Shown here piece after piece: positions 1,679 to 15,084 of a stretch of DNA of 16,029 nt; the first letter of the stretch is position 1, and each line of letters starts with the position of its first letter. Origin of the DNA: a virus. The notes under the pieces were generated by a model that did no database searches, had not been told where the DNA came from, and worked only from the letters and a program-made list of their open reading frames with translations. The translations under genes and the position numbers were made by a program. Location of the stretch: the UHGV virus genome UHGV-0264118. The stretch is one strand, 5' to 3'.

Positions 1679-2349
1679 TGCTCCCCAAATACAAAACCAA
1701 TTTCAGCCAGTGCCTCGTCCATTTTTTCGATGAACTCCGGCACCATCTCGTCAAAACTCGCTATGTACTTTTCATCCCGCTCAATCACGACATAATGCAG
1801 GCCTTCACGCTTCATGCGCGGGTCATAGTTGGCAAAGTACCAGGCATCTTTTCGCGTCACCCACATGCTGTACTGCACCTGGGCCATGTAAGCCGATTTT
1901 ATTGCCTCAAAACCACCGAGCCGGAATTTCATGAAATCCCGGGAGGTAAACGGGCATTTCAGTTCAAGGCCGTTGCCGTCACTGCATAAACCATCTGGAG
2001 AGCAGGCGGTGCGCATACTTTCGTCGCGATAGATGATCGGGGATTCAGTAACATTCACGCCGGAAGTGAATTCAAACAGGGTTCTGGCGTCGTTCTCGTA
2101 CTGTTTTCCCCAGGCCAGCGCCTTAGCATTAACTTCCGGAGCCACACCGGTGCAAACCTCAGCCAGCAGGGTGTGGAAGTAGGACATTTTCATGTCAGGC
2201 CACTTCTTTCCTGAGCGGGGCTTTGCTATCACGTTGTGAACTTCTGAAGCGGTGATGACGCCGAGCCGTAATTTGTGCCATGCATCATCCCCCTGTTCGA
2301 CAGCTCTCACGTCGATCCCGGTACGCTGCAGGATAATGTCCGGTGTCAT
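1669..2349 (-). CDS. exo: Lambda-type 5'-3' exonuclease (Red-alpha)
   Basis: 226-aa translation ([65 protein letters not shown]...GEQWR) is essentially lambda Exo over its full length. Its start overlaps the bet stop (ATGA). Confidence 0.95.
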
Positions 2350-3131
2350 GCTGCCACCTTCTGCTCAGTGGCTTTCTGTTTCAGGAATCCAAGAGCTTTC
2401 ACTGCTTCGGCCTGTGTCAGTTCTGACGATGCGCGAATGTCGCGGCGAAATATCTGGGAACAGAGCGGCAATAAGTCGTCATCCCATGTTTTATCCAGGG
2501 CGATCAGCAGAGTGTTAATCTCCTGCATGGTTTCATCGTTAACCGGAGTGATGTCGCGTTCCGGCTGACGTTCTGCAGTGTATGCAGTATTTTCGACAAT
2601 GCGCTCGGCTTCATCCTTGTCATAGATACCAGCAAATCCGAAGGCCAGACGGGCACACTGAATCATGGCTTTATGCCGTAACATCCGTTTGGGATGCGAC
2701 TGCCACGGTCCGGTGATTTCTCTGCCTTCGCGGGTTTTGAATGGTTCGCGGCGGCATTCATCCATCCACTCGGTAACGCAGATCGGATGATTACGGTCCT
2801 TGCGGTAAATCCGGCATGTACAGGATTCATTGTCCTGCTCAAAGTCCATGCCATCAAACTGCTGGTTTTCATTGATGATGCGGGACCAGCCATCAACGCC
2901 CACCACCGGAACGATGCCGTTCTGCTTATCAGGGAAGGCGTAAATTTCTTTCGTCCACGGATTAAGGCCGTACTGGTTGGCGACGATCAACAATGCGATG
3001 AACTGCGCATCGCTGGCATCACCTTTAAATGCCGTCTGGCGAAGAGTGGTGATCAGTTCCTGTGGGTCGACAGAATCCATGCCGACACGTTCAGCCAGCT
3101 TCCCTGCCAGCGTTGCGAGTGCTGTACTCAT
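2346..3131 (-). CDS. bet: Red-beta single-strand annealing protein
   Basis: 261-aa translation ([82 protein letters not shown]...) matches lambda Bet. A GAGGT Shine-Dalgarno lies upstream. Confidence 0.95.
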
Positions 3132-3136
3132 CCGTT

Positions 3137-3433
3137 TTATACCTCTGAATCAATATCAACCTGGTGGTGGGCAATAGTTTCAACCATGTACCGGATGTGT
3201 TCTGCCATGCGTTCCTGAAACTCAACATCGTCATCAAACGCACGGGTAATGGCTTTTTTGCTGGCCCCGTGGCGTTGCAAATGATCGATGCATAGCGATT
3301 CAAACAGGTGCTGAGGCAGGCCTTTTTCCATGTCGTCTGCCAGTTCTGCCTCTTTCTCTTCACGGGCGATCTGCTGGTAGTGACGCGCCCAGCTCTGAGC
3401 CTCAAGACGATCCTGAATGTAATAAGCGTTCAT
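3137..3433 (-). CDS. gam: Gam (RecBCD inhibitor), short 98-aa form
   Basis: Translation [60 protein letters not shown]... matches lambda GamS. A good Shine-Dalgarno (CAGGAGTTCAGCCATG) precedes the start. Confidence 0.9.
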
Positions 3434-3508
3434 GGCTGAACTCCTGAAAATGGCTGTGAAAATATCGCCCGCGAAATGCCAGGCTGATTAGGAAAACAGG
3501 AAAGGGGA

Positions 3509-3799
3509 TTAGTGATTCAGGCCGTTACCGCGTCCGTCGAGAAAAACTTCCACGAGCAAATCACGGGTATAAGTGCGCTCGATGCCGCGATGCAGATATA
3601 GCCGTCCGCGTAAATTAGCTGATGCAGTCCAGGTACCATCTTTGTGTTTGACCAGCATTCCTGGCATGACCGCACCTCGATTAACGGTCTGCGTTCCGTA
3701 ATGTTGATGAACCATAAAAACTCCTGCCCGTAAGCTGGGCTGCTGAACATATAGAGACTTCTGCGCGTATTCAGGCGGTGGATGGCCGCCGGTTGTCAT
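3509..3799 (-). CDS. Hypothetical protein in the kil/cIII position
   Basis: Predicted 136-aa ORF (3509..3919) begins at a TTG. The first ATG ([11 protein letters not shown]...) at 3799 gives 96 aa with a weak GAGG upstream. GC-rich, no hydrophobic segment, no cIII-like motif. Family not recognised. Confidence 0.35.
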
Positions 3800-4273
3800 A
3801 ACTAAGCCGCCTCGTTGAAGCGACTGAGGTATGAGGTGTTGAGTTGATTTCAGCTGGTCACACCGACGTTCACACGTCCGTTTCACCCCTCGCACTCCCC
3901 GTAGCCTGCTGAAATTCAAGCTGCAGATCTAAGCGGTCATCGCAACGGTGAAGCGGTAAATCAGAAGATTGCCGCATTCCTGTGCCGTTGTGATGGATTT
4001 ATAATACCTATTGCTATTAATCATATCAATACGTATGGGTATCAATCGATAGCATTTGTTGTTATGCTGTTGATACTGAAAAGAATTTAATGTTGAGGTT
4101 TTTTGTGACATTCGACTCAAAATGGATTTTGCAATTAAATAACCAATTGATAACAATGAAAACATCACGGAGAACTAGATAGGCCAAATTACTTGCCACG
4201 AAGATAGTTGTAAGCGTTGATAACAATGGTATTGAGGAGGGATACCCCCGACAATTGCGTCAGGGGGGAGGGA

Positions 4274-4654
4274 TTATTGGGCTTTAATGTAATTTTTCAA
4301 CTTTGCAGTTTGCTCTACAGCGCTAGGAATGCATCCAAACATATTTGCGCATGAGGTTTGAACAACAATTTCGTTCTTATCGTTTCCTAAAGGTGTTTTT
4401 ACAACCTGATATCCAAGCACGGCACTATTTCCAATAGGAGTGTATGTGGAAATTACCGTTTCATCTGCCATCTGAATTTTCCAACCAGAATTCATTGCTA
4501 TCCAAGCTTTGGCTCTCGACCAATATGTATCGCATTGCTCTTTACCTTGACAGTAAACTGGTTGTTGAGCTTGTGCGGCAATTTGGGGATCTATTTTCTG
4601 AGCACATCCAGAGATGCTAATCAGAATAGCTGCTGTAACGAATAGTTTTCTCAT
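4274..4654 (-). CDS. Lipoprotein, likely lysogen-expressed moron in the rexAB position
   Basis: ORF MSMRKLFVTAAILISISGC|AQ... has an N-terminal signal peptide and lipobox (ISGC). The ATG at 4654 has an AAGGAA Shine-Dalgarno 6-7 nt upstream. Lies 48 nt downstream of, and co-oriented with, the repressor gene. AT-rich relative to neighbours. Confidence 0.6.
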   Translation of the reverse strand: MRKLFVTAAILISISGCAQKIDPQIAAQAQQPVYCQGKEQCDTYWSRAKAWIAMNSGWKIQMADETVISTYTPIGNSAVLGYQVVKTPLGNDKNEIVVQTSCANMFGCIPSAVEQTAKLKNYIKAQ

Positions 4655-4702
4655 TGACATTTCCTTTGTTTTGAATATACAACAAATAAATTGGCAAAAA
4701 AA

Positions 4703-5395
4703 TTATCCGTGTTTTCTATATGTCTGCGGCATGCTTCCAATGACTTTACCGAAGATGAACACCCGGTTCATCTCGTCTTTCTCGATCGGGTCCCACGGTG
4801 AGTAGCTCTTGTTATCAGAGATAACCAGCAGCTTATCCTTCATCATTTGCAGGCGCTTTACATGGGCTGTGTCGTCGTACAGAAACGCATAGATACCATC
4901 ACCGTCGAAAGATTTAACAGTGATATCAACGAACAAAAGATCACCTGGTTCGATCGTTCCTGACATGCTGTCACCGCGTACGTTAATGATGCGGATATTT
5001 TCTGCCTTCCTGCCATCGAACATGTGACGAGCATCGTCAAACGAGTACTCAACCGAGCGTAGAACTTCTACAAACTCACGATTGATGACACCCGGCCCGG
5101 CACTGACTTCTATATCAAGAACGTCAATCTTGAAGTATTTGGAATGGCTGACAGCAGGCTTCCCTGATTGTTGACCGTCATTTCTCATCGGGCCTATGCC
5201 TGATGAGAGCCACTCTGTTCGAACACCCAATGCATTAGCTATTTCAACAATTTTTGTTGAGCCGCGCGCGTTGCCGCTTGTCAGTCTCCAGATTGTGGGT
5301 TGAGCTACGCCAGACGCCTTTGCAAGAGCGCCTTGAGACATTCCAGATTGTTCCATCGCTAGGTTTAAGCGATCAGCAAGAGTTTCTTTTTTCAT
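4703..5395 (-). CDS. cI: CI-type prophage repressor (XRE-family HTH plus S24 LexA-like autopeptidase domain)
   Basis: HTH segment MSQGALAKASGVAQPTIWRLTSG. Ala-Gly cleavage site (EVSAGPG). S24 catalytic motifs GDSM and VKRL. The ATG at 5395 (MKKETLADRL) has no Shine-Dalgarno, consistent with a leaderless PRM-type transcript. The predicted TTG start at 5431 is less likely. Confidence 0.85.
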   Translation of the reverse strand: MKKETLADRLNLAMEQSGMSQGALAKASGVAQPTIWRLTSGNARGSTKIVEIANALGVRTEWLSSGIGPMRNDGQQSGKPAVSHSKYFKIDVLDIEVSAGPGVINREFVEVLRSVEYSFDDARHMFDGRKAENIRIINVRGDSMSGTIEPGDLLFVDITVKSFDGDGIYAFLYDDTAHVKRLQMMKDKLLVISDNKSYSPWDPIEKDEMNRVFIFGKVIGSMPQTYRKHG

Positions 5396-5505
5396 AAGTT
5401 TTAATTTATACGCTTGCGTATTGATGGTCAAAACACGTTTTGCTATTGATTGGGTTAATACGCATTGCTATTATCTATTCATTGCAATACCAATAGGAAT
5501 TGATA
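5396..5505. promoter_or_regulatory. Divergent repressor/cro promoter-operator region (PRM/PR-like)
   Basis: Intergenic region between divergent cI and cro. Near-palindrome ATACGC-TT-GCGTAT at 5408-5421 and related ATACGCATTGCTAT at 5457-5470. Candidate PR: TTGATT (5446-5451), 17-nt spacer, TATTAT (5469-5474). Candidate PRM on the minus strand: TTGACC then about 16 nt then ATAAAT, ending just upstream of the leaderless ATG. Confidence 0.5.
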
Positions 5506-5733
5506 ATGACAAATCAAACCATTCAACTCGCAATCAGTATTACAGGTAGTCAAAAACGACTGGCAGATCTCTGCGGTGTAGCCCAACCCACGGTTTGGCG
5601 TTGGCTACACGGTGGCGGAATTGATGCCCGCTATGTAATGAAAATTGTCTCAGCCACTGGTGGAAAGATTAAACCAGCAGATATTCGTCCCGACCTCGCA
5701 CCATTGTTTAACGTGAGTAATTCTTCCGCCTAA
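5506..5733 (+). CDS. Cro/YdaS-like small HTH regulator
   Basis: 75-aa ORF from the ATG at 5506 (predicted TTG at 5500). AGGA Shine-Dalgarno 7 nt upstream. HTH segment SQKRLADLCGVAQPTVWRW. Divergent from the repressor. Confidence 0.7.
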   Translation: MTNQTIQLAISITGSQKRLADLCGVAQPTVWRWLHGGGIDARYVMKIVSATGGKIKPADIRPDLAPLFNVSNSSA

Positions 5734-5763: not shown

Positions 5764-6303
5764 ATGCAACCAATTACATACCAACAGACTAGCGGATTTA
5801 CCCCGGCTGCGGTGATAAATCGTTCTCAAACAAAACAGGCGCCAGGCCACGAAAAAATCCGTGATGCCGTTCGCGCCTGGTCGGCTGCAGATAATCAGGA
5901 TGTTGTTGCCGCACTCATTGTGAATGAGTATCGGGAGCAGGGCGGCGGCACCATCGATTTCCCTGATGATGTCAGCCGTGCACGCCAGAAGCTGTTCCGC
6001 TTCCTCGATAACAAATTCGATTCTGAAAAATACCGAAATAACGTGCGTGAACTGACCCCGGCAATTCTGGCGGTACTACCGCTGGAATATCGCGGTTACC
6101 TGGTTGAGCAGGATAGCTTCATGGCCAGGTTGGCTGAAATGGAAAAGGAACTCAGTGAGGCAAAACAGGCTGTCATTCTCAACGCACCACGCCACCAGAA
6201 ACTGAAGGAAATTGGTGAAGGTATTGTATCGATGTTTCGTGTGGACCCAGATCTGGCTGGTCCATTGATGGCGATGGTTACTACCATGCTGGGGGCGATA
6301 TGA
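5764..6303 (+). CDS. YdaT-like or CII-like regulatory protein (family assignment tentative)
   Basis: 179-aa ORF directly downstream of the cro-like gene, in the position of cII/ydaT. Motifs EYREQGGG and LTPAILAVLP recall YdaT-family proteins, from recollection only. Confidence 0.5.
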   Translation: MQPITYQQTSGFTPAAVINRSQTKQAPGHEKIRDAVRAWSAADNQDVVAALIVNEYREQGGGTIDFPDDVSRARQKLFRFLDNKFDSEKYRNNVRELTPAILAVLPLEYRGYLVEQDSFMARLAEMEKELSEAKQAVILNAPRHQKLKEIGEGIVSMFRVDPDLAGPLMAMVTTMLGAI

Positions 6304-6389
6304 CAGGTTCAGAAATGGCGAAAGCCGGTCTGCTGGAACAGAACCGACTTTCAGGTGCAAATCGTAACACACTCATTGCGGGAGGAATT

Positions 6390-7319
6390 ATGGCAAACAC
6401 TGCTGAGATATTCAATTTTCCAGTGCCGGATGCGGCACAAAAGGAGCCGCGCGTGGCAGATCTCGATGATGGTTATACGCGCATTGCAAATGAGTTGCTG
6501 GAAGCTGTGATGCTGGCCGGATTAACACAGCACCAGCTTCTGGTCTTCCTGGCTGTCATGCGCAAAACATATGGCTTTAATAAAAAACTGGATTGGGTGA
6601 GCAACGAGCAACTGTCCGGATTGACCGGGATATTACCGCACAAGTGTTCTGCTGCAAAAAGTGTTCTGGTAAAGCGTGGGATTTTGATTCAGAGCGGGCG
6701 GAATATCGGTATTAATAATGTGGTCAGTGAATGGTCAACATTACCCGAATCAGGTAAGAAAAATAAAGTTTACCTGAAAGAGGTAAATTTACCTGAATCA
6801 GGTAAGAAAAGTTTACCCAAATCAGGTAAAGGCGTTTACCCGAATCAGGTAAACACAAAAGACAAACTAACAAAAGACAATATAAAACCTTTTTCGTCCG
6901 AGAATTCTGGCGAATCCTCTGACCAACCAGAAAACGATCTTCCTGTGGTGAAACCAGATGCTGCAATTCAGAGCGGCAGCAAGTGGGGGACAGCAGAAGA
7001 CCTGACCGCCGCAGAGTGGATGTTTGACATGGTGAAGACCATCGCACCATCAGCCAGAAAACCGAATTTTGCAGGGTGGGCTAACGATATCCGCCTGATG
7101 CGTGAACGTGACGGACGTAACCACCGCGACATGTGCGTGCTTTTCCGCTGGGCATGCCAGGACAACTTCTGGTCCGGTAACGTGCTAAGTCCGGCCAAAC
7201 TCCGCGACAAGTGGACCCAACTCGAAATCAACCGTAACAAGCAACAGGCAGGCATGATAGCCAGCAAACCAAAACTCGACCTGACAAACACTGACTGGAT
7301 TTACGGGGTGGATTTATGA
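6390..7319 (+). CDS. O: Replication initiator O (lambda O-like)
   Basis: From the ATG at 6390 (MANTAEIFNFPVP..., GGAGG Shine-Dalgarno 4 nt upstream). The C-terminal ~150 aa (..YSSENSGESSDQPENDLPVVKPDAAIQSGSKWGTAEDLTAAEWMFDMVKTIAPSARKPNFAGWANDIRLMRERDGRNHRDMCVLFRWACQDNFWSGNV..) is essentially lambda O. The N-terminal iteron-binding domain is related but divergent. Confidence 0.9.
   Translation: MANTAEIFNFPVPDAAQKEPRVADLDDGYTRIANELLEAVMLAGLTQHQLLVFLAVMRKTYGFNKKLDWVSNEQLSGLTGILPHKCSAAKSVLVKRGILIQSGRNIGINNVVSEWSTLPESGKKNKVYLKEVNLPESGKKSLPKSGKGVYPNQVNTKDKLTKDNIKPFSSENSGESSDQPENDLPVVKPDAAIQSGSKWGTAEDLTAAEWMFDMVKTIAPSARKPNFAGWANDIRLMRERDGRNHRDMCVLFRWACQDNFWSGNVLSPAKLRDKWTQLEINRNKQQAGMIASKPKLDLTNTDWIYGVDL
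6741..6853. repeat. Replication origin iterons inside the O gene
   Basis: Five copies of about 17 bp with consensus TACC(C/T)GAATCAGGTAA(G/A) at approximately 6742, 6771 (degenerate), 6790, 6814 and 6837. Followed by an A-rich tract at 6854-6890, as in ori-lambda. Confidence 0.75.
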
Positions 7320-8383: not shown

Positions 8384-8716
8384 ATGAACCCTTATATTTA
8401 TCTTGGTGGTGCAATACTTGCAGAGGTCATTGGTACAACCTTAATGAAGTTTTCAGAAGGTTTTACACGGTTATGGCCATCTGTTGGTACAATTATTTGT
8501 TATTGTGCATCATTCTGGTTATTAGCTCAGACGCTGGCTTATATTCCTACAGGGATTGCTTATGCTATCTGGTCAGGAGTCGGTATTGTCCTGATTAGCT
8601 TACTGTCATGGGGACTTTTCGGCCAACGGCTGGACCTGCCAGCCATTATAGGCATGATGTTGATTTGTGCCGGTGTGTTGGTTATTAATTTATTGTCACG
8701 AAGCACACCACATTAA
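8384..8716 (+). CDS. emrE: SMR-family multidrug efflux transporter EmrE
   Basis: 110-aa translation from the ATG at 8384 (MNPYIYLGGAILAEVIGTTLMKFSEGFTRLWPSVGTIICYCASFWLLAQTLAYIPTGIAYAIWSGVGIVLISLLSWG...) matches E. coli EmrE with its four transmembrane helices. The predicted ORF starts earlier at 8330. Confidence 0.95.
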   Translation: MNPYIYLGGAILAEVIGTTLMKFSEGFTRLWPSVGTIICYCASFWLLAQTLAYIPTGIAYAIWSGVGIVLISLLSWGLFGQRLDLPAIIGMMLICAGVLVINLLSRSTPH

Positions 8717-8972: not shown

Positions 8973-10499
8973 ATGAAAAAAGCCATAGCATATATGCGAT
9001 TTTCATCACCAGGTCAGATGTCTGGCGACTCATTAAACCGACAGAGAAGACTTATTGCTGAATGGTTAAAGGTAAATAGTGATTATTATCTTGATACCAT
9101 AACATATGAAGATTTAGGATTAAGTGCATTCAAAGGAAAGCATGCACAATCAGGAGCTTTTTCGGAATTTTTAGATGCTATAGAGCATGGTTATATATTG
9201 CCAGGAACTACATTGTTAGTTGAAAGTCTGGACAGACTTTCAAGAGAAAAAGTCGGTGAAGCGATTGAACGTCTGAAATTGATTTTGAATCACGGTATTG
9301 ATGTTATAACTCTTTGCGACAATACAGTCTATAATATTGACTCTTTGAATGAGCCATATTCATTAATAAAAGCCATACTTATAGCACAAAGGGCAAATGA
9401 AGAAAGCGAGATAAAGTCAAGTCGGGTTAAATTATCATGGAAGAAAAAACGGCAGGATGCACTGGAATCAGGTACGATTATGACGGCGTCTTGTCCGAGA
9501 TGGCTCTCCTTAGATGACAAAAGAACGGCTTTTGTTCCAGACCCCGACAGGGTGAAAACTATTGAGCTAATTTTTAAACTCAGGATGGAAAGGCGCTCAT
9601 TGAATGCAATAGCCAAGTATTTAAATGATCATGCTGTAAAGAATTTCTCAGGAAAAGAAAGTGCATGGGGACCTTCTGTAATTGAAAAATTATTAGCGAA
9701 TAAAGCTCTGATAGGTATATGCGTACCTTCATATCGTGCAAGAGGTAAAGGAATAAGTGAAATCGCTGGCTATTATCCCAGAGTCATATCAGATGATTTG
9801 TTTTACGCTGTACAGGAAATTCGGTTGGCACCTTTTGGTATTAGCAATAGTAGCAAAAATCCTATGTTGATAAATCTACTTCGAACAGTTATGAAGTGCG
9901 AGGCTTGTGGTAATACCATGATTGTTCATGCGGTATCTGGAAGTTTGCATGGCTATTATGTTTGTCCGATGAGAAGACTGCATCGATGTGACAGGCCATC
10001 AATAAAGAGAGATTTGGTTGATTATAATATCATTAATGAGTTGCTTTTTAATTGTAGTAAAATCCAACCAGTTGAAAACAAGAAAGATGCTAATGAAACT
10101 TTAGAGTTGAAAATTATTGAGCTCCAGATGAAAATTAATAATTTAATTGCTGCATTATCTGTTGCGCCTGAAGTTACCGCTATAGCAGAAAAAATCAGAG
10201 TATTAGATAAGGAATTACGAAGGGCTTCTGTATCATTAAAAACTTTGAAGAGTAAAGCGGTGAGTTCACTTGGTGATTTTCATGCTATTGACTTAACCAG
10301 TAAAAATGGGCGAGAGCTATGTCGTACACTTGCCTATAAAACATTCGAAAAAATCATAATCAATACAGATAATAAAACCTGTGATATCTATTTTATGAAT
10401 GGCATTGTTTTTAAACACTATCCTTTAATGAAAACAATATCCGCCCAGCAGGCGATAAGTACTCTCAAATATATGGTTGATGGTGAGGTTTATTTTTGA
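8973..10499 (+). CDS. ybcK: Large serine recombinase (YbcK-like)
   Basis: 508 aa. N-terminal resolvase-type catalytic motif AIAYMRFSSPGQ (Y-x-R-x-S nucleophile). C-terminal Cys cluster (CEACGN...CPMRRLHRCD) and a coiled-coil segment typical of large serine recombinases. AGGTG Shine-Dalgarno upstream. Markedly AT-rich gene. Confidence 0.85.
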   Translation: MKKAIAYMRFSSPGQMSGDSLNRQRRLIAEWLKVNSDYYLDTITYEDLGLSAFKGKHAQSGAFSEFLDAIEHGYILPGTTLLVESLDRLSREKVGEAIERLKLILNHGIDVITLCDNTVYNIDSLNEPYSLIKAILIAQRANEESEIKSSRVKLSWKKKRQDALESGTIMTASCPRWLSLDDKRTAFVPDPDRVKTIELIFKLRMERRSLNAIAKYLNDHAVKNFSGKESAWGPSVIEKLLANKALIGICVPSYRARGKGISEIAGYYPRVISDDLFYAVQEIRLAPFGISNSSKNPMLINLLRTVMKCEACGNTMIVHAVSGSLHGYYVCPMRRLHRCDRPSIKRDLVDYNIINELLFNCSKIQPVENKKDANETLELKIIELQMKINNLIAALSVAPEVTAIAEKIRVLDKELRRASVSLKTLKSKAVSSLGDFHAIDLTSKNGRELCRTLAYKTFEKIIINTDNKTCDIYFMNGIVFKHYPLMKTISAQQAISTLKYMVDGEVYF

Positions 10500-13429: not shown

Positions 13430-13813
13430 ATGCGTGATATTCAGATGGTTCTTGAGCGTTGGGGAGCGTGGGCGGCTAATAATCATGAAGATGTGACCTG
13501 GTCGTCCATTGCCGCCGGTTTTAAGGGATTAATTACTTCAAAAGTAAAATCTCGCCCGCAATGTTGTGACGATGACGCGATGATCATTTGCGGGTGCATG
13601 GCCCGTCTGAAAAAGAACAACAGCGATTTGCACGATTTATTAGTAGATTATTATGTAGTCGGTATGACATTCATGTCACTGGCAGGTAAGCATTGCTGCT
13701 CTGATGGTTATATCGGGAAAAGGTTACAGAAGGCTGAGGGCATAATTGAAGGGGTGTTAATGGCATTAGATATCCGGTTAGAGATGGATATCGTTGTTAA
13801 TAACTCTAATTAA
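13430..13813 (+). CDS. quuD: Late-gene antiterminator Q, phage 82 type (QuuD-like)
   Basis: 127 aa from the ATG at 13430 ([34 protein letters not shown]...[16 protein letters not shown]...). GGAGTAAG Shine-Dalgarno upstream. The predicted TTG start at 13415 is less likely. Confidence 0.85.
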
Positions 13814-14001: not shown

Positions 14002-15084
14002 TTAGAACTGGTAAACCATACCTACAGCAACGATATCATCGGTAGCAACGCCAGATGCTTTCGTGAAATCGCTCTTATCAATCAGGTTGATTTTGTAGTC
14101 AACAAAAGTGGACATATTTTTGTTGAAGTAATAGGTTGCACCTACATCAACATATTCAACCAGGTCCTGATCACCCCAAACACCCAAGTCTTTTCCTTTA
14201 GAATGCAGGTAAGCAACGGATGGACGCAGGCCGAAGTCGAACTGATATTGTGCAACAGCTTCGAAGTTTTGTGCTTTGTTGGCAATATGGTTATTACCAA
14301 AAACAGTCATGTTCTGGGTTTCAGAATAGGTGGTGGCCAGATAGATGTTGTTCGCATCATATTTCAGACCAGCTGCCCATACTTCAGCATTTTGACCAGA
14401 AGCATTCAGACCGTTGTTACCGTAGATAACCTGATTATTAGTGCGATCAGATTTAGCATAGGTTGCACCCACGCCGAATCCTTCATACTCATAAGTAGTT
14501 GAGAAACCGAAACCATCGCCATTAGCTTCAGTTACTTCATTTCGGTCATTTTTGCCCTGATACTGAGCTGCAAAGTTCAGGCCATCAACCAGACCAAAGA
14601 AGTCGTTGTTACGATAAGTTGCAACACCTGTGGTGCGACCAGTCATGAATACATCTGTTTGGGTCCAGGTATCGCCACCGAATTCTGGCAGAACGTCAGT
14701 CCACGCACCGATGTCGTATGCTACACCGTAGTTACGGCCGTAATCGATTGAGCCGTAGTCACCGAATTTCAGGCCTGCAAATGCAAGACGGGTTTTGTCT
14801 TTGGAGGAACCTTGAGATTCAGCGCGGTTGCCTTTGAATTCATATTCCCACTGACCGAAACCAGTCAGTTGATCGTTGATTTGGGTTTCACCTTTGAAGC
14901 CAAGACGGGCATAAGTAGTATCACCATCATCTGCATCATTAGAGGAGAAGTAGTGCTTAGCATTAACTTTCCCGTACAGATCCAGCTTGTTACTGTCTTT
15001 ATTATAAATTTCAGCTGCCTGAGCAGACATCGCCATCAGTACTGATGCAGCTACAGCAGAAATTGCCACTGTTAATTTTTTCAT
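14002..15084 (-). CDS. nmpC: Outer-membrane general porin (OmpC/OmpF family), NmpC-like
   Basis: 360 aa. Signal peptide [23 protein letters not shown]|AEIYNKD. Beta-barrel porin hallmarks and C-terminal ...VAVGMVYQF. Convergent with Q, between Q and the lysis genes. Confidence 0.9.

What the first reader, a model, noticed from the sequence alone, without database searches (positions are those of the whole stretch)
3920..4702. Repressor-linked lipoprotein in the rexAB-equivalent position: candidate superinfection-exclusion or defense gene
A 127-aa predicted lipoprotein (signal peptide plus ISGC lipobox, four further Cys) lies 48 nt downstream of the repressor on the same strand. This is the arrangement of lambda cI-rexA-rexB, where lysogen-expressed exclusion genes are co-transcribed with the repressor. 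The gene is AT-rich relative to neighbours. Beyond it lies a ~350 bp AT-rich non-coding region where lambda carries N and PL/OL. This region has a GC hairpin (about 4245-4267) right after the lipoprotein stop and a 12-bp direct repeat TTGATAACAATG at 4147-4158 and 4217-4228. No N-like gene is present.
Basis: partly seen in the sequence, partly recalled or inferred. Interest (0 to 1): 0.65.

Follow-up and report, generated by a model that had tools for sequence, protein, structure and literature searches.

The report
Repressor-linked prophage outer-membrane lipoprotein cassette
A 0.6-kb cargo cassette just after the repressor gene of a DLP12-like E. coli prophage encodes an uncharacterised outer-membrane lipoprotein; its family recurs after repressors in many prophages, so it is a good but untested candidate for blocking other phages at the cell envelope.

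Summary
A 126-aa lipoprotein gene (4274-4654, minus strand; lipobox ISGC; four more conserved Cys) lies 48 nt after a cI-like HTH+S24 repressor. The hairpin, the 12-bp repeat and the low GC are all present.

Sibling prophages with the same repressor show that window 4096-4702 is a swappable cassette between the cI stop codon and OL/PL. In the same slot they carry SIR2, a Ser/Thr kinase pair, PDC-M11, an unrelated BamE-like lipoprotein, or nothing.

The protein is under strong purifying selection (dN/dS about 0.05). It belongs to a large unannotated family: 1097 clusters, no Pfam, and its PHROG has no known function. The structure model is confident (pLDDT 94) and shows a KA1/BamC-N/Flpp3-like fold. 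It has no functional homologue and is unrelated to Cor, Llp, Rtp45, Bor or RexAB.

Homologues sit directly after unrelated repressors in at least seven other phage contexts. Others lie in tail-gene and nin-region moron slots, usually with their own terminator.

So the rexAB-equivalent position and expression in lysogens are well supported. Superinfection exclusion is a reasonable inference but untested. I class it as a new protein family in an already known kind of locus, of moderate interest.

The parts
4096..4702 (-). Cargo cassette (about 0.6 kb) in the variable slot between the cI stop codon and OL/PL
   Evidence: Siblings with the same cI (L104, L106, L108, L004, L005) align to window 3400-4095 and 4700/4705-5600 only. 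The 4046-4273 part occurs only in the 12 E. coli genomes that carry the gene, and in no phage record.
4274..4654 (-). Lipoprotein CDS, 126 aa (alternative upstream ATG at 4660 gives 128 aa); mature part 110 aa, 12.1 kDa, pI 8.3
   Evidence: ORF. RefSeq WP_001228516.1, annotated hypothetical. PHROG 16082, E 1e-67, function unknown. dN/dS 0.05 against L015; L014 and L015 encode identical proteins despite 27% synonymous differences. AF2 pLDDT 94.3.
4604..4654 (-). Signal peptide and lipobox (MRKLFVTAAILISISG|C), with Ala at +2
   Evidence: Rule-based PS51257-type match. 129 of 157 family members match the rule, and +2 is never Asp.
4655..4702 (-). 48-nt cI-to-lipoprotein spacer with AGGA Shine-Dalgarno (4662-4665); no promoter or terminator detected on this strand
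   Evidence: Sequence; promoter and terminator scan.
4245..4267 (-). GC hairpin 7 nt after the stop codon; probable non-canonical terminator or 3'-end stabiliser (no U-tract)
   Evidence: Fold -15.1 kcal/mol, z -3.0. Homologous cassettes carry canonical stem-plus-T-run terminators at the same place.
4147..4158 (+). 12-bp direct repeat, copy 1 (TTGATAACAATG), inside the cassette tail
   Evidence: Function unknown.
4217..4228 (+). 12-bp direct repeat, copy 2 (TTGATAACAATG), inside the cassette tail
   Evidence: Function unknown.
4703..5395 (-). cI-like repressor (HTH_3 + Peptidase_S24), 230 aa
   Evidence: Pfam S24 1.5e-18, HTH_3 1.5e-6. RefSeq XRE family regulator.
4001..4045 (-). OL/PL of the backbone: operator-like 14-mers at 4004-4017 and 4029-4042; PL candidate -35 TTGATA (4029-4024) and -10 TATTAT (4006-4001)
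   Evidence: Matches to OR sites. Promoter scan 10 of 12. Conserved in siblings that have the same cI.
5396..5505 (.). OR region: operator-like sites 5408-5421 (perfect palindrome ATACGCTTGCGTAT), 5433-5446, 5458-5471 and 5487-5500. The PRM candidate (-35 5431-5426, -10 5408-5403) would give a leaderless cI-lipoprotein transcript. PR candidate at 5446-5474.
   Evidence: The transcript structure is inferred.
3716..3995 (-). PL leader of the backbone, 53.6% GC, with no N-like ORF; lies between PL and kil (3509-3715)
   Evidence: 96-98% identical in about 16 phages that have no annotated gene in this leader, where N would lie (annotation checked in 4A7, PhiR68_2 and PhiR34_1). Pfam and PHROG negative apart from Kil.

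Best explanation
Window 4096-4702 is a one-gene cargo cassette in the hypervariable slot between the repressor's stop codon and OL/PL of a DLP12-like lambdoid prophage.

Shown here. The gene encodes a protein with a canonical lipoprotein signal and a non-Asp +2 residue. Its 110-aa mature domain is compact and holds four conserved Cys. It is under strong purifying selection. The cassette is absent from, or replaced in, close relatives. The family recurs directly after unrelated prophage repressors.

Inferred. [quoted passage not shown] With no promoter of its own detected and no terminator in the 48-nt gap, it would be read through from the repressor's promoter (PRM, probably a leaderless cI mRNA, plus PRE). 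It would therefore be made continuously in lysogens, with the transcript ending at or stabilised by the hairpin at 4245-4267.

Most likely function (inference, about 40-45%). It protects the lysogen at the envelope by binding an outer-membrane protein or machine from the periplasmic side. That would prevent adsorption or DNA entry of superinfecting phages, as T5 Llp, phi80 Cor and Rtp45 do, although it is not homologous to any of them.
For: A real gene under selection: dN/dS 0.05, and identical proteins with pS 0.27.

Lipobox rule met; +2 is Ala in the window protein and never Asp in the 129 family members that match the lipobox rule (Ala in 103). Four Cys are conserved across 77 homologues. 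The model is confident (pLDDT 94.3, pTM 0.82).

Cassette boundaries lie exactly at the cI stop and at 4095. The same slot in siblings holds SIR2, a kinase pair, PDC-M11 (PADLOC 3e-133), DUF3800, a BamE-like lipoprotein, or nothing.

The literature describes the cI-to-N region as a mosaic hotspot that holds rexAB and bstA and shares the highly transcribed repressor promoter (PMC8585504).

Homologues at 83-35% identity lie 1-195 nt after unrelated HTH/S24 repressors in L007/L014, L015, L077, L079, L080, L086 and L101. Other homologues lie next to gpK/gpI/gpJ or the tape-measure gene. I know of receptor-blocking lipoprotein genes lying beside receptor-binding genes in this way, but I did not check that here. 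Periplasmic outer-membrane lipoproteins that block phage receptors are an established mechanism (Llp on FhuA, Rtp45 on LptDE: PMC12685063).

No promoter-like site and no terminator-like site were found on the minus strand between cI and the gene.
Against: There are no expression or phenotype data.

It is about twice the size of known exclusion lipoproteins.

The family is very broad (1097 clusters at 50% identity). It has near-invariant residues and C-terminal PDZ or SH3-like fusions. This fits binding to a conserved envelope component, or a non-phage role, better than fast-evolving receptor masking.

The hairpin lacks a U-tract, so the transcript's end is uncertain.
Confidence: 0.42

Rival explanations
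1. A lysogenic-conversion envelope factor unrelated to phage exclusion. The lipoprotein would alter host physiology (serum or complement resistance like lambda Bor, stress tolerance, adhesion or virulence, or outer-membrane biogenesis), for example by touching a conserved machine such as BAM or Lpt.
Against: The fold matches are generic (5-13% identity; no Foldseek E below 0.001). No Bor, TraT or other Pfam hit. The other known occupants of the slot are mostly defence-type genes. Placement in tail modules in other phages is typical of exclusion genes.
Confidence: 0.25
2. A periplasmic inhibitor or immunity protein. The lipoprotein would neutralise a muralytic enzyme or toxin arriving from outside. 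Examples are a tail-tip peptidoglycan hydrolase of a superinfecting phage (as T4 Spackle inhibits gp5 lysozyme), or a T6SS or bacteriocin effector.
For: It is small, compact, disulfide-stabilised and periplasmic, like many immunity and inhibitor proteins (inference). In several phages the homologue is inserted beside gpK-type NlpC/P60 tail genes.
Confidence: 0.13
3. A passenger with no current function in this prophage: a decaying hitch-hiker that is not expressed, with the hairpin and repeats as junk from the insertion event.
For: In CP025859 (L001), the one carrier genome whose annotation I inspected, the prophage is defective: its integrase is split by an IS3. The cassette tail has no homologues and no clear signals. 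No promoter of its own was detected.
Against: Strong purifying selection. The ORF is intact and 99.9-100% identical across 12 genomes from different hosts and countries. It has a good Shine-Dalgarno site and an operon-like position behind a highly expressed gene. The repressor linkage recurs across distant phages.
Confidence: 0.07

Closest known systems
Lambda rexA-rexB (and BstA of Salmonella phage BTP1): cargo downstream of the prophage repressor
   Same: Same genomic slot and strand, between the cI stop and OL/PL. Presumably transcribed from the repressor promoter in lysogens. The slot is a known mosaic hotspot (PMC8585504), and here it is shown to swap cargo among siblings.
   Different: No sequence relation. 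One small exported lipoprotein, rather than a cytoplasmic or inner-membrane abortive-infection system. Any action would be at the envelope, not abortive infection.
Superinfection-exclusion lipoproteins T5 Llp, phi80/N15/T1 Cor and Rtp45
   Same: Phage-encoded, Lol-sorted, small periplasmic outer-membrane lipoproteins. Some family members sit next to tail or receptor-binding genes, like cor and llp. The mechanism of Llp and Rtp45 is binding the periplasmic face of FhuA or LptDE (PMC12685063).
   Different: Not homologous: Cor PHROG E 0.06 on the signal peptide only, and no PDB sequence or fold match. About 12 kDa against about 6-7 kDa. A distinct beta-alpha-beta4-alpha fold with two disulfides. 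A far broader and better-conserved family. Receptor binding is untested.
Lambda Bor / Iss
   Same: A prophage-expressed outer-membrane lipoprotein moron of about 100 aa.
   Different: No Pfam Lambda_Bor hit. Different genomic location (Bor is in the lysis region). Serum resistance is untested.
BamE-like 'SEN1984 family' lipoprotein of sibling prophages (WP_061091946.1, WP_001226568.1)
   Same: Identical slot, identical length (126 aa) and the same orientation behind the same or a related cI in DLP12-like prophages.
   Different: Unrelated sequence with no extra Cys. The window protein matches no NCBIfam model.
Helix-grip / KA1-like domains: BamC N-domain, Francisella Flpp3 (DUF3568), AMPK/MARK KA1
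   Different: 5-13% identity. No Foldseek hit below E 0.001. No Pfam relation. The two conserved Cys pairs are specific to this family.

Membership tests
Bacterial lipoprotein (SPase II substrate, PROSITE PS51257 type) | Positively charged n-region, hydrophobic h-region, lipobox [LVI][ASTVI][GAS]C, with Cys at position 15-35 | tested here: met
   MRKLFVTAAILISISG-C17 matches the rule; 129 of 157 family members match. SignalP and LipoP were not available.
Bacterial lipoprotein (SPase II substrate, PROSITE PS51257 type) | Outer-membrane sorting: no Asp at +2 (Lol avoidance rule) | tested here: met
   +2 is Ala in the window protein. Among the 129 members that match the lipobox rule it is Ala in 103 and never Asp. 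Actual localisation cannot be tested here.
Lambda RexA/RexB | Sequence homology to RexA or RexB; a two-gene sensor and membrane-channel pair | tested here: not met
   No Pfam or PADLOC hit. The cassette holds a single gene.
Lambda RexA/RexB | Position: same strand, immediately downstream of cI, upstream of OL/PL | tested here: met
   48 nt after the cI stop. OL/PL operators at 4004-4042.
Cor superinfection-exclusion proteins (PHROG 1119) | Profile match over the mature protein | tested here: not met
   E 0.06, residues 3-31 only, which is the signal peptide.
Llp / Rtp45 exclusion lipoproteins | Sequence or fold similarity to the solved Llp or Rtp45 structures | tested here: not met
Llp / Rtp45 exclusion lipoproteins | Binds the periplasmic face of a phage receptor and abolishes adsorption | not testable with these tools
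   Needs plating-efficiency and adsorption assays, and pull-down or co-structure work.
Bor/Iss (Pfam Lambda_Bor) | Profile match | tested here: not met
   No Pfam family other than a sub-threshold TM_HPP hit. None in 77 homologues.
Moron (Hendrix/Juhala sense) | Present between two genes that are adjacent or differently filled in close relatives | tested here: met
   Cassette 4096-4702 is replaced or absent in siblings with the same flanks.
Moron (Hendrix/Juhala sense) | Base composition different from the neighbours | tested here: met
   39.4% GC against 47-52%.
Moron (Hendrix/Juhala sense) | Own promoter and own terminator | tested here: inconclusive
   No promoter in the 48-nt gap. The hairpin has no U-tract. 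Homologous cassettes in L007, L014, L015, L016 and L008 do have canonical terminators.
Moron (Hendrix/Juhala sense) | Expressed from the repressed prophage | not testable with these tools
   Inferred from operon position only.
PHROG 16082 | Full-length profile match | tested here: met
   E 1.1e-67, residues 3-128 against profile positions 1-129 of 130. The PHROG has no known function.
BamC-N / DUF3568 (Flpp3) / KA1 helix-grip domains | Homology beyond a shared fold (significant profile or structure score) | tested here: inconclusive

The most novel reading that the evidence does not exclude
This may be the first recognised member of a large, unannotated family of prophage outer-membrane lipoproteins. 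The family has a KA1/BamC-like fold and two disulfides, and sometimes carries a PDZ or SH3-like tail. Across Proteobacteria its expression would be coupled to the prophage repressor. It would protect lysogens by acting on a conserved outer-membrane machine such as BAM, Lpt or a general porin feature, rather than on one specific receptor. That would make it a new mechanistic class of envelope-level superinfection exclusion or lysogenic conversion.
Probability: 0.15. Interest if true: 0.7.

Novelty: new member of a known kind. Interest (0 to 1): 0.42.

Why it matters
The cI-to-PL slot of lambdoid phages is a proven source of lysogen-expressed anti-phage functions (rexAB, bstA). Here the same slot in one prophage lineage is shown to swap among SIR2, a kinase pair, PDC-M11 and two unrelated lipoproteins.

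This lipoprotein belongs to a family of more than 1000 sequence clusters with no annotation, a confident and distinctive structure model, and repeated linkage to prophage repressors. One expression-and-plating experiment could therefore assign a function to a widespread prophage gene.

If it blocks phage entry, it would add a new structural class to the very short list of characterised Gram-negative exclusion lipoproteins. It would also matter for phage therapy and typing of E. coli, since several carriers are ETEC strains. If it does not, it is still a clean example of cargo turnover at the immunity region.

Tried and rejected
- **Family searches.** Pfam, NCBIfam and PADLOC on the protein gave nothing usable. 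Pfam on 77 homologues gave nothing. A PDB sequence-profile search gave nothing below E 0.5.
- **Structure searches.** BFVD viral structures gave nothing below E 0.001. Foldseek PDB gave only generic KA1, BamC and SRPBCC hits. AFDB50 was not available.
- **'YceK' label.** One source gives this name to a cluster member. I rejected it because no DUF1375 Pfam hit supports it.
- **Cor relation.** Rejected: the PHROG hit covers only the signal peptide.
- **Intrinsic terminator.** Canonical terminators are found in the homologues but not here, where the hairpin lacks a U-tract.
- **Own promoter in the cI-to-gene gap.** None found. TTGCCA...TATATT has a 12-nt spacer, judged by eye.
- **N-like gene or known RNA in 3716-4273.** No Pfam or PHROG hit. 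Rfam gave only a sub-threshold ALIL match on the wrong strand (E 0.011, 20.8 against 50 bits). The PL leader fold is not exceptional (z -1.4), nor is the spacer fold (z -0.4).
- **Comparative analysis of the cassette tail.** Not possible: it has no homologues outside the 12 carrier genomes.
- **Genome-wide taxonomic survey.** It returned only 4 loci because the pattern was too strict.
- **Context of PDZ-fusion members.** The contigs were too short.
- **Literature.** Searches for the accession, for SEN1984 and for exclusion lipoproteins found no study of this family.

Full report
**1. What is in the sequence**

The minus strand of the window carries a lambdoid early-left arm. It runs bet (2346-3131), gam (3137-3433) and kil (3509-3715), then a stretch with no annotated gene. 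A small ORF follows at 4274-4660, then a cI-like repressor at 4703-5395, divergent from cro (5506-5733).

The repressor has HTH_3 and Peptidase_S24 domains.

The small ORF is 128 aa from its first ATG. An AGGA Shine-Dalgarno site lies 7 nt before the second ATG (4654). RefSeq and all homologues start there, which gives 126 aa and a 48-nt gap to the cI stop.

The N-terminus MRKLFVTAAILISISG|C satisfies the PROSITE-type lipoprotein rule, with Ala at +2. By the Lol +2 rule (established knowledge) this predicts outer-membrane sorting. In the family, 129 of 157 members match the rule and none has Asp at +2.

The four further Cys are invariant or nearly so in 77 homologues.

GC content is 39.4% in the gene, 47.3% in cI and 50-52% in kil, gam and bet.

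The hairpin at 4245-4267 is real (8 bp, -15.1 kcal/mol, z -3.0) but lacks a U-tract.

The 12-mer TTGATAACAATG is exact at 4147-4158 and 4217-4228. An exact 12-mer repeat arises in only 0.8% of Markov-1 simulations of the region.

- The protein is 126 aa, not 127.
- Only about 3996-4273 is AT-rich.

**2. It is a real, selected gene**

Against an 83%-identical homologue, dN/dS is about 0.05. Two homologues (L014, L015) encode identical proteins despite 27% synonymous differences.

The gene is 99.9-100% identical in 12 of 5426 complete E. coli genomes from different hosts and countries.

**3. Where the regulatory sites are, and what the cassette is**

Operator-like 14-mers (ATACSNWTNSSTAT) occur at these positions:
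- OR: 5408-5421 (a perfect palindrome), 5433-5446, 5458-5471 and 5487-5500.
- OL: 4004-4017 and 4029-4042.

The OL pair overlaps a good leftward promoter, with -35 TTGATA at 4029-4024 and -10 TATTAT at 4006-4001. OL/PL is therefore at about 4001-4045.

A PRM candidate (-10 at 5408-5403) would start transcription at the cI ATG, giving a leaderless mRNA as in lambda. This is an inference.

Pairwise comparison with sibling prophages and phages that have the same cI shows homology over window 3400-4095 and again from 4700/4705 onward. The segment 4096-4702 is therefore a discrete cargo cassette of about 0.6 kb.

The cassette contains the 48-nt leader, the gene, the hairpin and both 12-bp repeats. 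Its 178-bp tail has no homologue outside the 12 carrier genomes.

In fact they belong to the cassette. The backbone's OL/PL and a conserved 280-nt leader without an N gene lie further left.

**4. The slot**

The window's backbone is a DLP12-like prophage. It carries emrE, ybcK, ybcN, ninE, rusA, quuD, an NmpC/OmpC-like porin, essD and rrrD. It is present at 80% coverage or more in 410 complete E. coli genomes.

Between the same cI and OL, siblings carry the following:
- a SIR2 protein (strain H10);
- a hypothetical protein plus a Ser/Thr kinase (KSC207);
- the PADLOC candidate system PDC-M11A/B (phage 4A7; E 3e-133);
- another two-gene cassette (PhiR68_2);
- a 287-aa hypothetical protein.

In siblings whose cI shares only its C-terminal part with the window's, the slot holds:
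- a DUF3800 protein;
- nothing.

An unrelated 126-aa BamE-like 'SEN1984 family' lipoprotein occurs behind both kinds of repressor.

This matches the literature. The cI-to-N interval is a mosaic hotspot that holds rexAB in lambda and bstA in BTP1, and is thought to share the strongly transcribed repressor promoter (PMC8585504).

**5. The protein family**

The protein has no Pfam, NCBIfam or PADLOC match. It matches PHROG 16082 (function unknown) at 1e-67.

An exhaustive profile search found 1097 cluster representatives at E 1e-3 or better, and 406 at 1e-10 or better. Most are 125-135 aa with lipoboxes.

With a 77-sequence alignment AlphaFold gives pLDDT 94.3 and pTM 0.82. The model is a beta-alpha-beta4-alpha two-layer domain.

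Longer members add a C-terminal PDZ domain (9 of 29 long members), a tandem second copy, or SH3b-like or Cys-rich tails. This points to a periplasmic protein-binding role.

**6. Genomic contexts of homologues**

Homologues lie immediately downstream, on the same strand, of HTH/S24 repressors that are unrelated to the window's cI:

| Locus | Lipoprotein identity to the window protein | Note |
|---|---|---|
| L007/L014 | 83% | P22-like early region with an N gene |
| L015 | 83% | |
| L077 | 36% | |
| L079 | 35% | |
| L080 | 38% | |
| L086 | 40% | |
| L101 | 38% | 1-nt gap after the repressor |

P0009 and P0010 also lie in prophages near immunity switches.

Other homologues occupy tail-module moron sites beside gpK, gpI, gpJ or the tape-measure gene (L008, L016, L017, L073, L074, L081, L088). 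A second small lipoprotein often follows them.

About 55 IMG/VR loci and two GenBank phages carry a 44%-identical copy after a hok-like gene in the nin region.

Five homologous cassettes end in canonical stem-plus-T-run terminators. The unit is thus a mobile moron that repeatedly lands in lysogen-expressed or receptor-binding-adjacent positions.

**7. Mechanism**

Shown here: the lipoprotein signal, Cys conservation, purifying selection, the cassette nature of the segment, and the recurrent repressor linkage.

Inferred:
- Lol sorting to the outer membrane, and two periplasmic disulfides.
- Read-through expression from PRM and PRE in lysogens. No promoter-like or terminator-like site lies on the minus strand in the 48-nt gap.
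- Transcript end or stabilisation at the hairpin.

Most likely function (about 0.4): envelope-level exclusion of superinfecting phages by binding an outer-membrane component from the periplasm. The established examples are Llp on FhuA and Rtp45 on LptDE (PMC12685063).

Points against this reading:
- It has no homology to any known exclusion lipoprotein.
- It is about twice their size.
- Its conservation is unusually broad, and some members carry PDZ fusions. Both hint at a conserved host partner.

Rival explanations:
- A Bor-like or BAM/Lpt-touching lysogenic-conversion factor (0.25).
- A periplasmic inhibitor or immunity protein (0.13).
- An unexpressed passenger (0.07). Selection argues against this.

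**8. Comparison and novelty**

By position the cassette is a rexAB/bstA analogue. By protein class it resembles Llp, Cor, Rtp45 and Bor. It fails every homology-based membership test for these families (see the membership table).

The kind of thing is already known: a repressor-linked, lysogen-expressed moron in the cI-to-PL hotspot that encodes an envelope lipoprotein. The protein family is uncharacterised.

I rate it a new member of a known kind, with interest about 0.42. It is a sound, cheap-to-test candidate with wide distribution. It is not surprising to a phage specialist, and its function remains unproven.

Noticed in passing
window 4096-4702 versus L104, L105, L106, L107, L108, L004, L005: Sibling DLP12-like prophages and 4A7-like phages fill the same cI-to-OL slot with other cargo. 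Behind the same cI: SIR2, a hypothetical protein plus Ser/Thr kinase, PDC-M11A/B, another two-gene cassette, or a 287-aa hypothetical. Behind a cI that shares only its C-terminal part: DUF3800, or nothing. It is a compact defence or cargo hotspot worth cataloguing.
   Followed up: partly
L106 986-1366 and L107 988-1368 (minus strand): An unrelated 126-aa BamE-like 'SEN1984 family' lipoprotein occupies exactly the same slot behind the same or a related repressor. Two different outer-membrane lipoprotein families therefore alternate at this position.
   Followed up: partly
window 3716-3995 (minus strand): A 280-nt, 53.6% GC leader lies between PL and kil with no N-like ORF. It is 96-98% identical in about 16 phages that also lack an annotated N. 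How, or whether, these phages antiterminate leftward transcription is unclear. The fold is unexceptional (z -1.4), and the only Rfam hit is a sub-threshold ALIL match on the opposite strand.
   Followed up: partly
window 5396-5431: The PRM candidate (-35 TTGACC, -10 TAAATT ending at 5403) would start transcription at the cI ATG (5395). This implies a leaderless cI mRNA as in lambda. The operator-like site 5408-5421 is a perfect palindrome, ATACGCTTGCGTAT.
   Followed up: partly
window 4096-4273: The cassette-borne tail is 178 bp long and holds the two exact 12-bp repeats. It also holds a promoter-like site at 4300-4273 (minus strand; TTGAAA-16-AATAAT) inside the 3' end of the CDS. It has no homologues outside the 12 carrier genomes, and its role is unexplained.
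   Followed up: partly
window 6741-6857: Five iterons (TTACCCGAATCAGGTAA, spaced 19-29 bp) plus an AT-rich stretch lie inside the O-like replication gene (6300-7319). This is a typical lambdoid origin.
   Followed up: no
window 14002-15084 (minus strand): A prophage-borne OmpC/NmpC-like porin gene lies between quuD (13430-13813) and essD, as in DLP12. It is another envelope-modifying cargo gene in the same prophage.
   Followed up: no
window 8384-8716 and 8973-10499: An emrE-like SMR transporter and a ybcK serine recombinase lie downstream of P and ren, confirming the DLP12-like backbone. The CP025859 copy (L001) diverges from the window in this region and is defective: its integrase is split by an IS3.
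   Followed up: no
P0048, P0060, P0067, P0074, P0116, P0128, P0133-P0135; L081 5968-6684; P0011; P0114: Family members carry a C-terminal PDZ domain, a tandem duplication of the lipoprotein domain (P0011), or an SH3b-like tail (P0114). The domain is used as a modular N-terminal unit.
   Followed up: partly
L017 6377-6787, L073 6377-6724, L088 6428-6850: In tail-module contexts the homologue is followed directly by a second, unrelated small lipoprotein, ahead of gpI and gpJ. This may be a two-lipoprotein cassette.
   Followed up: no
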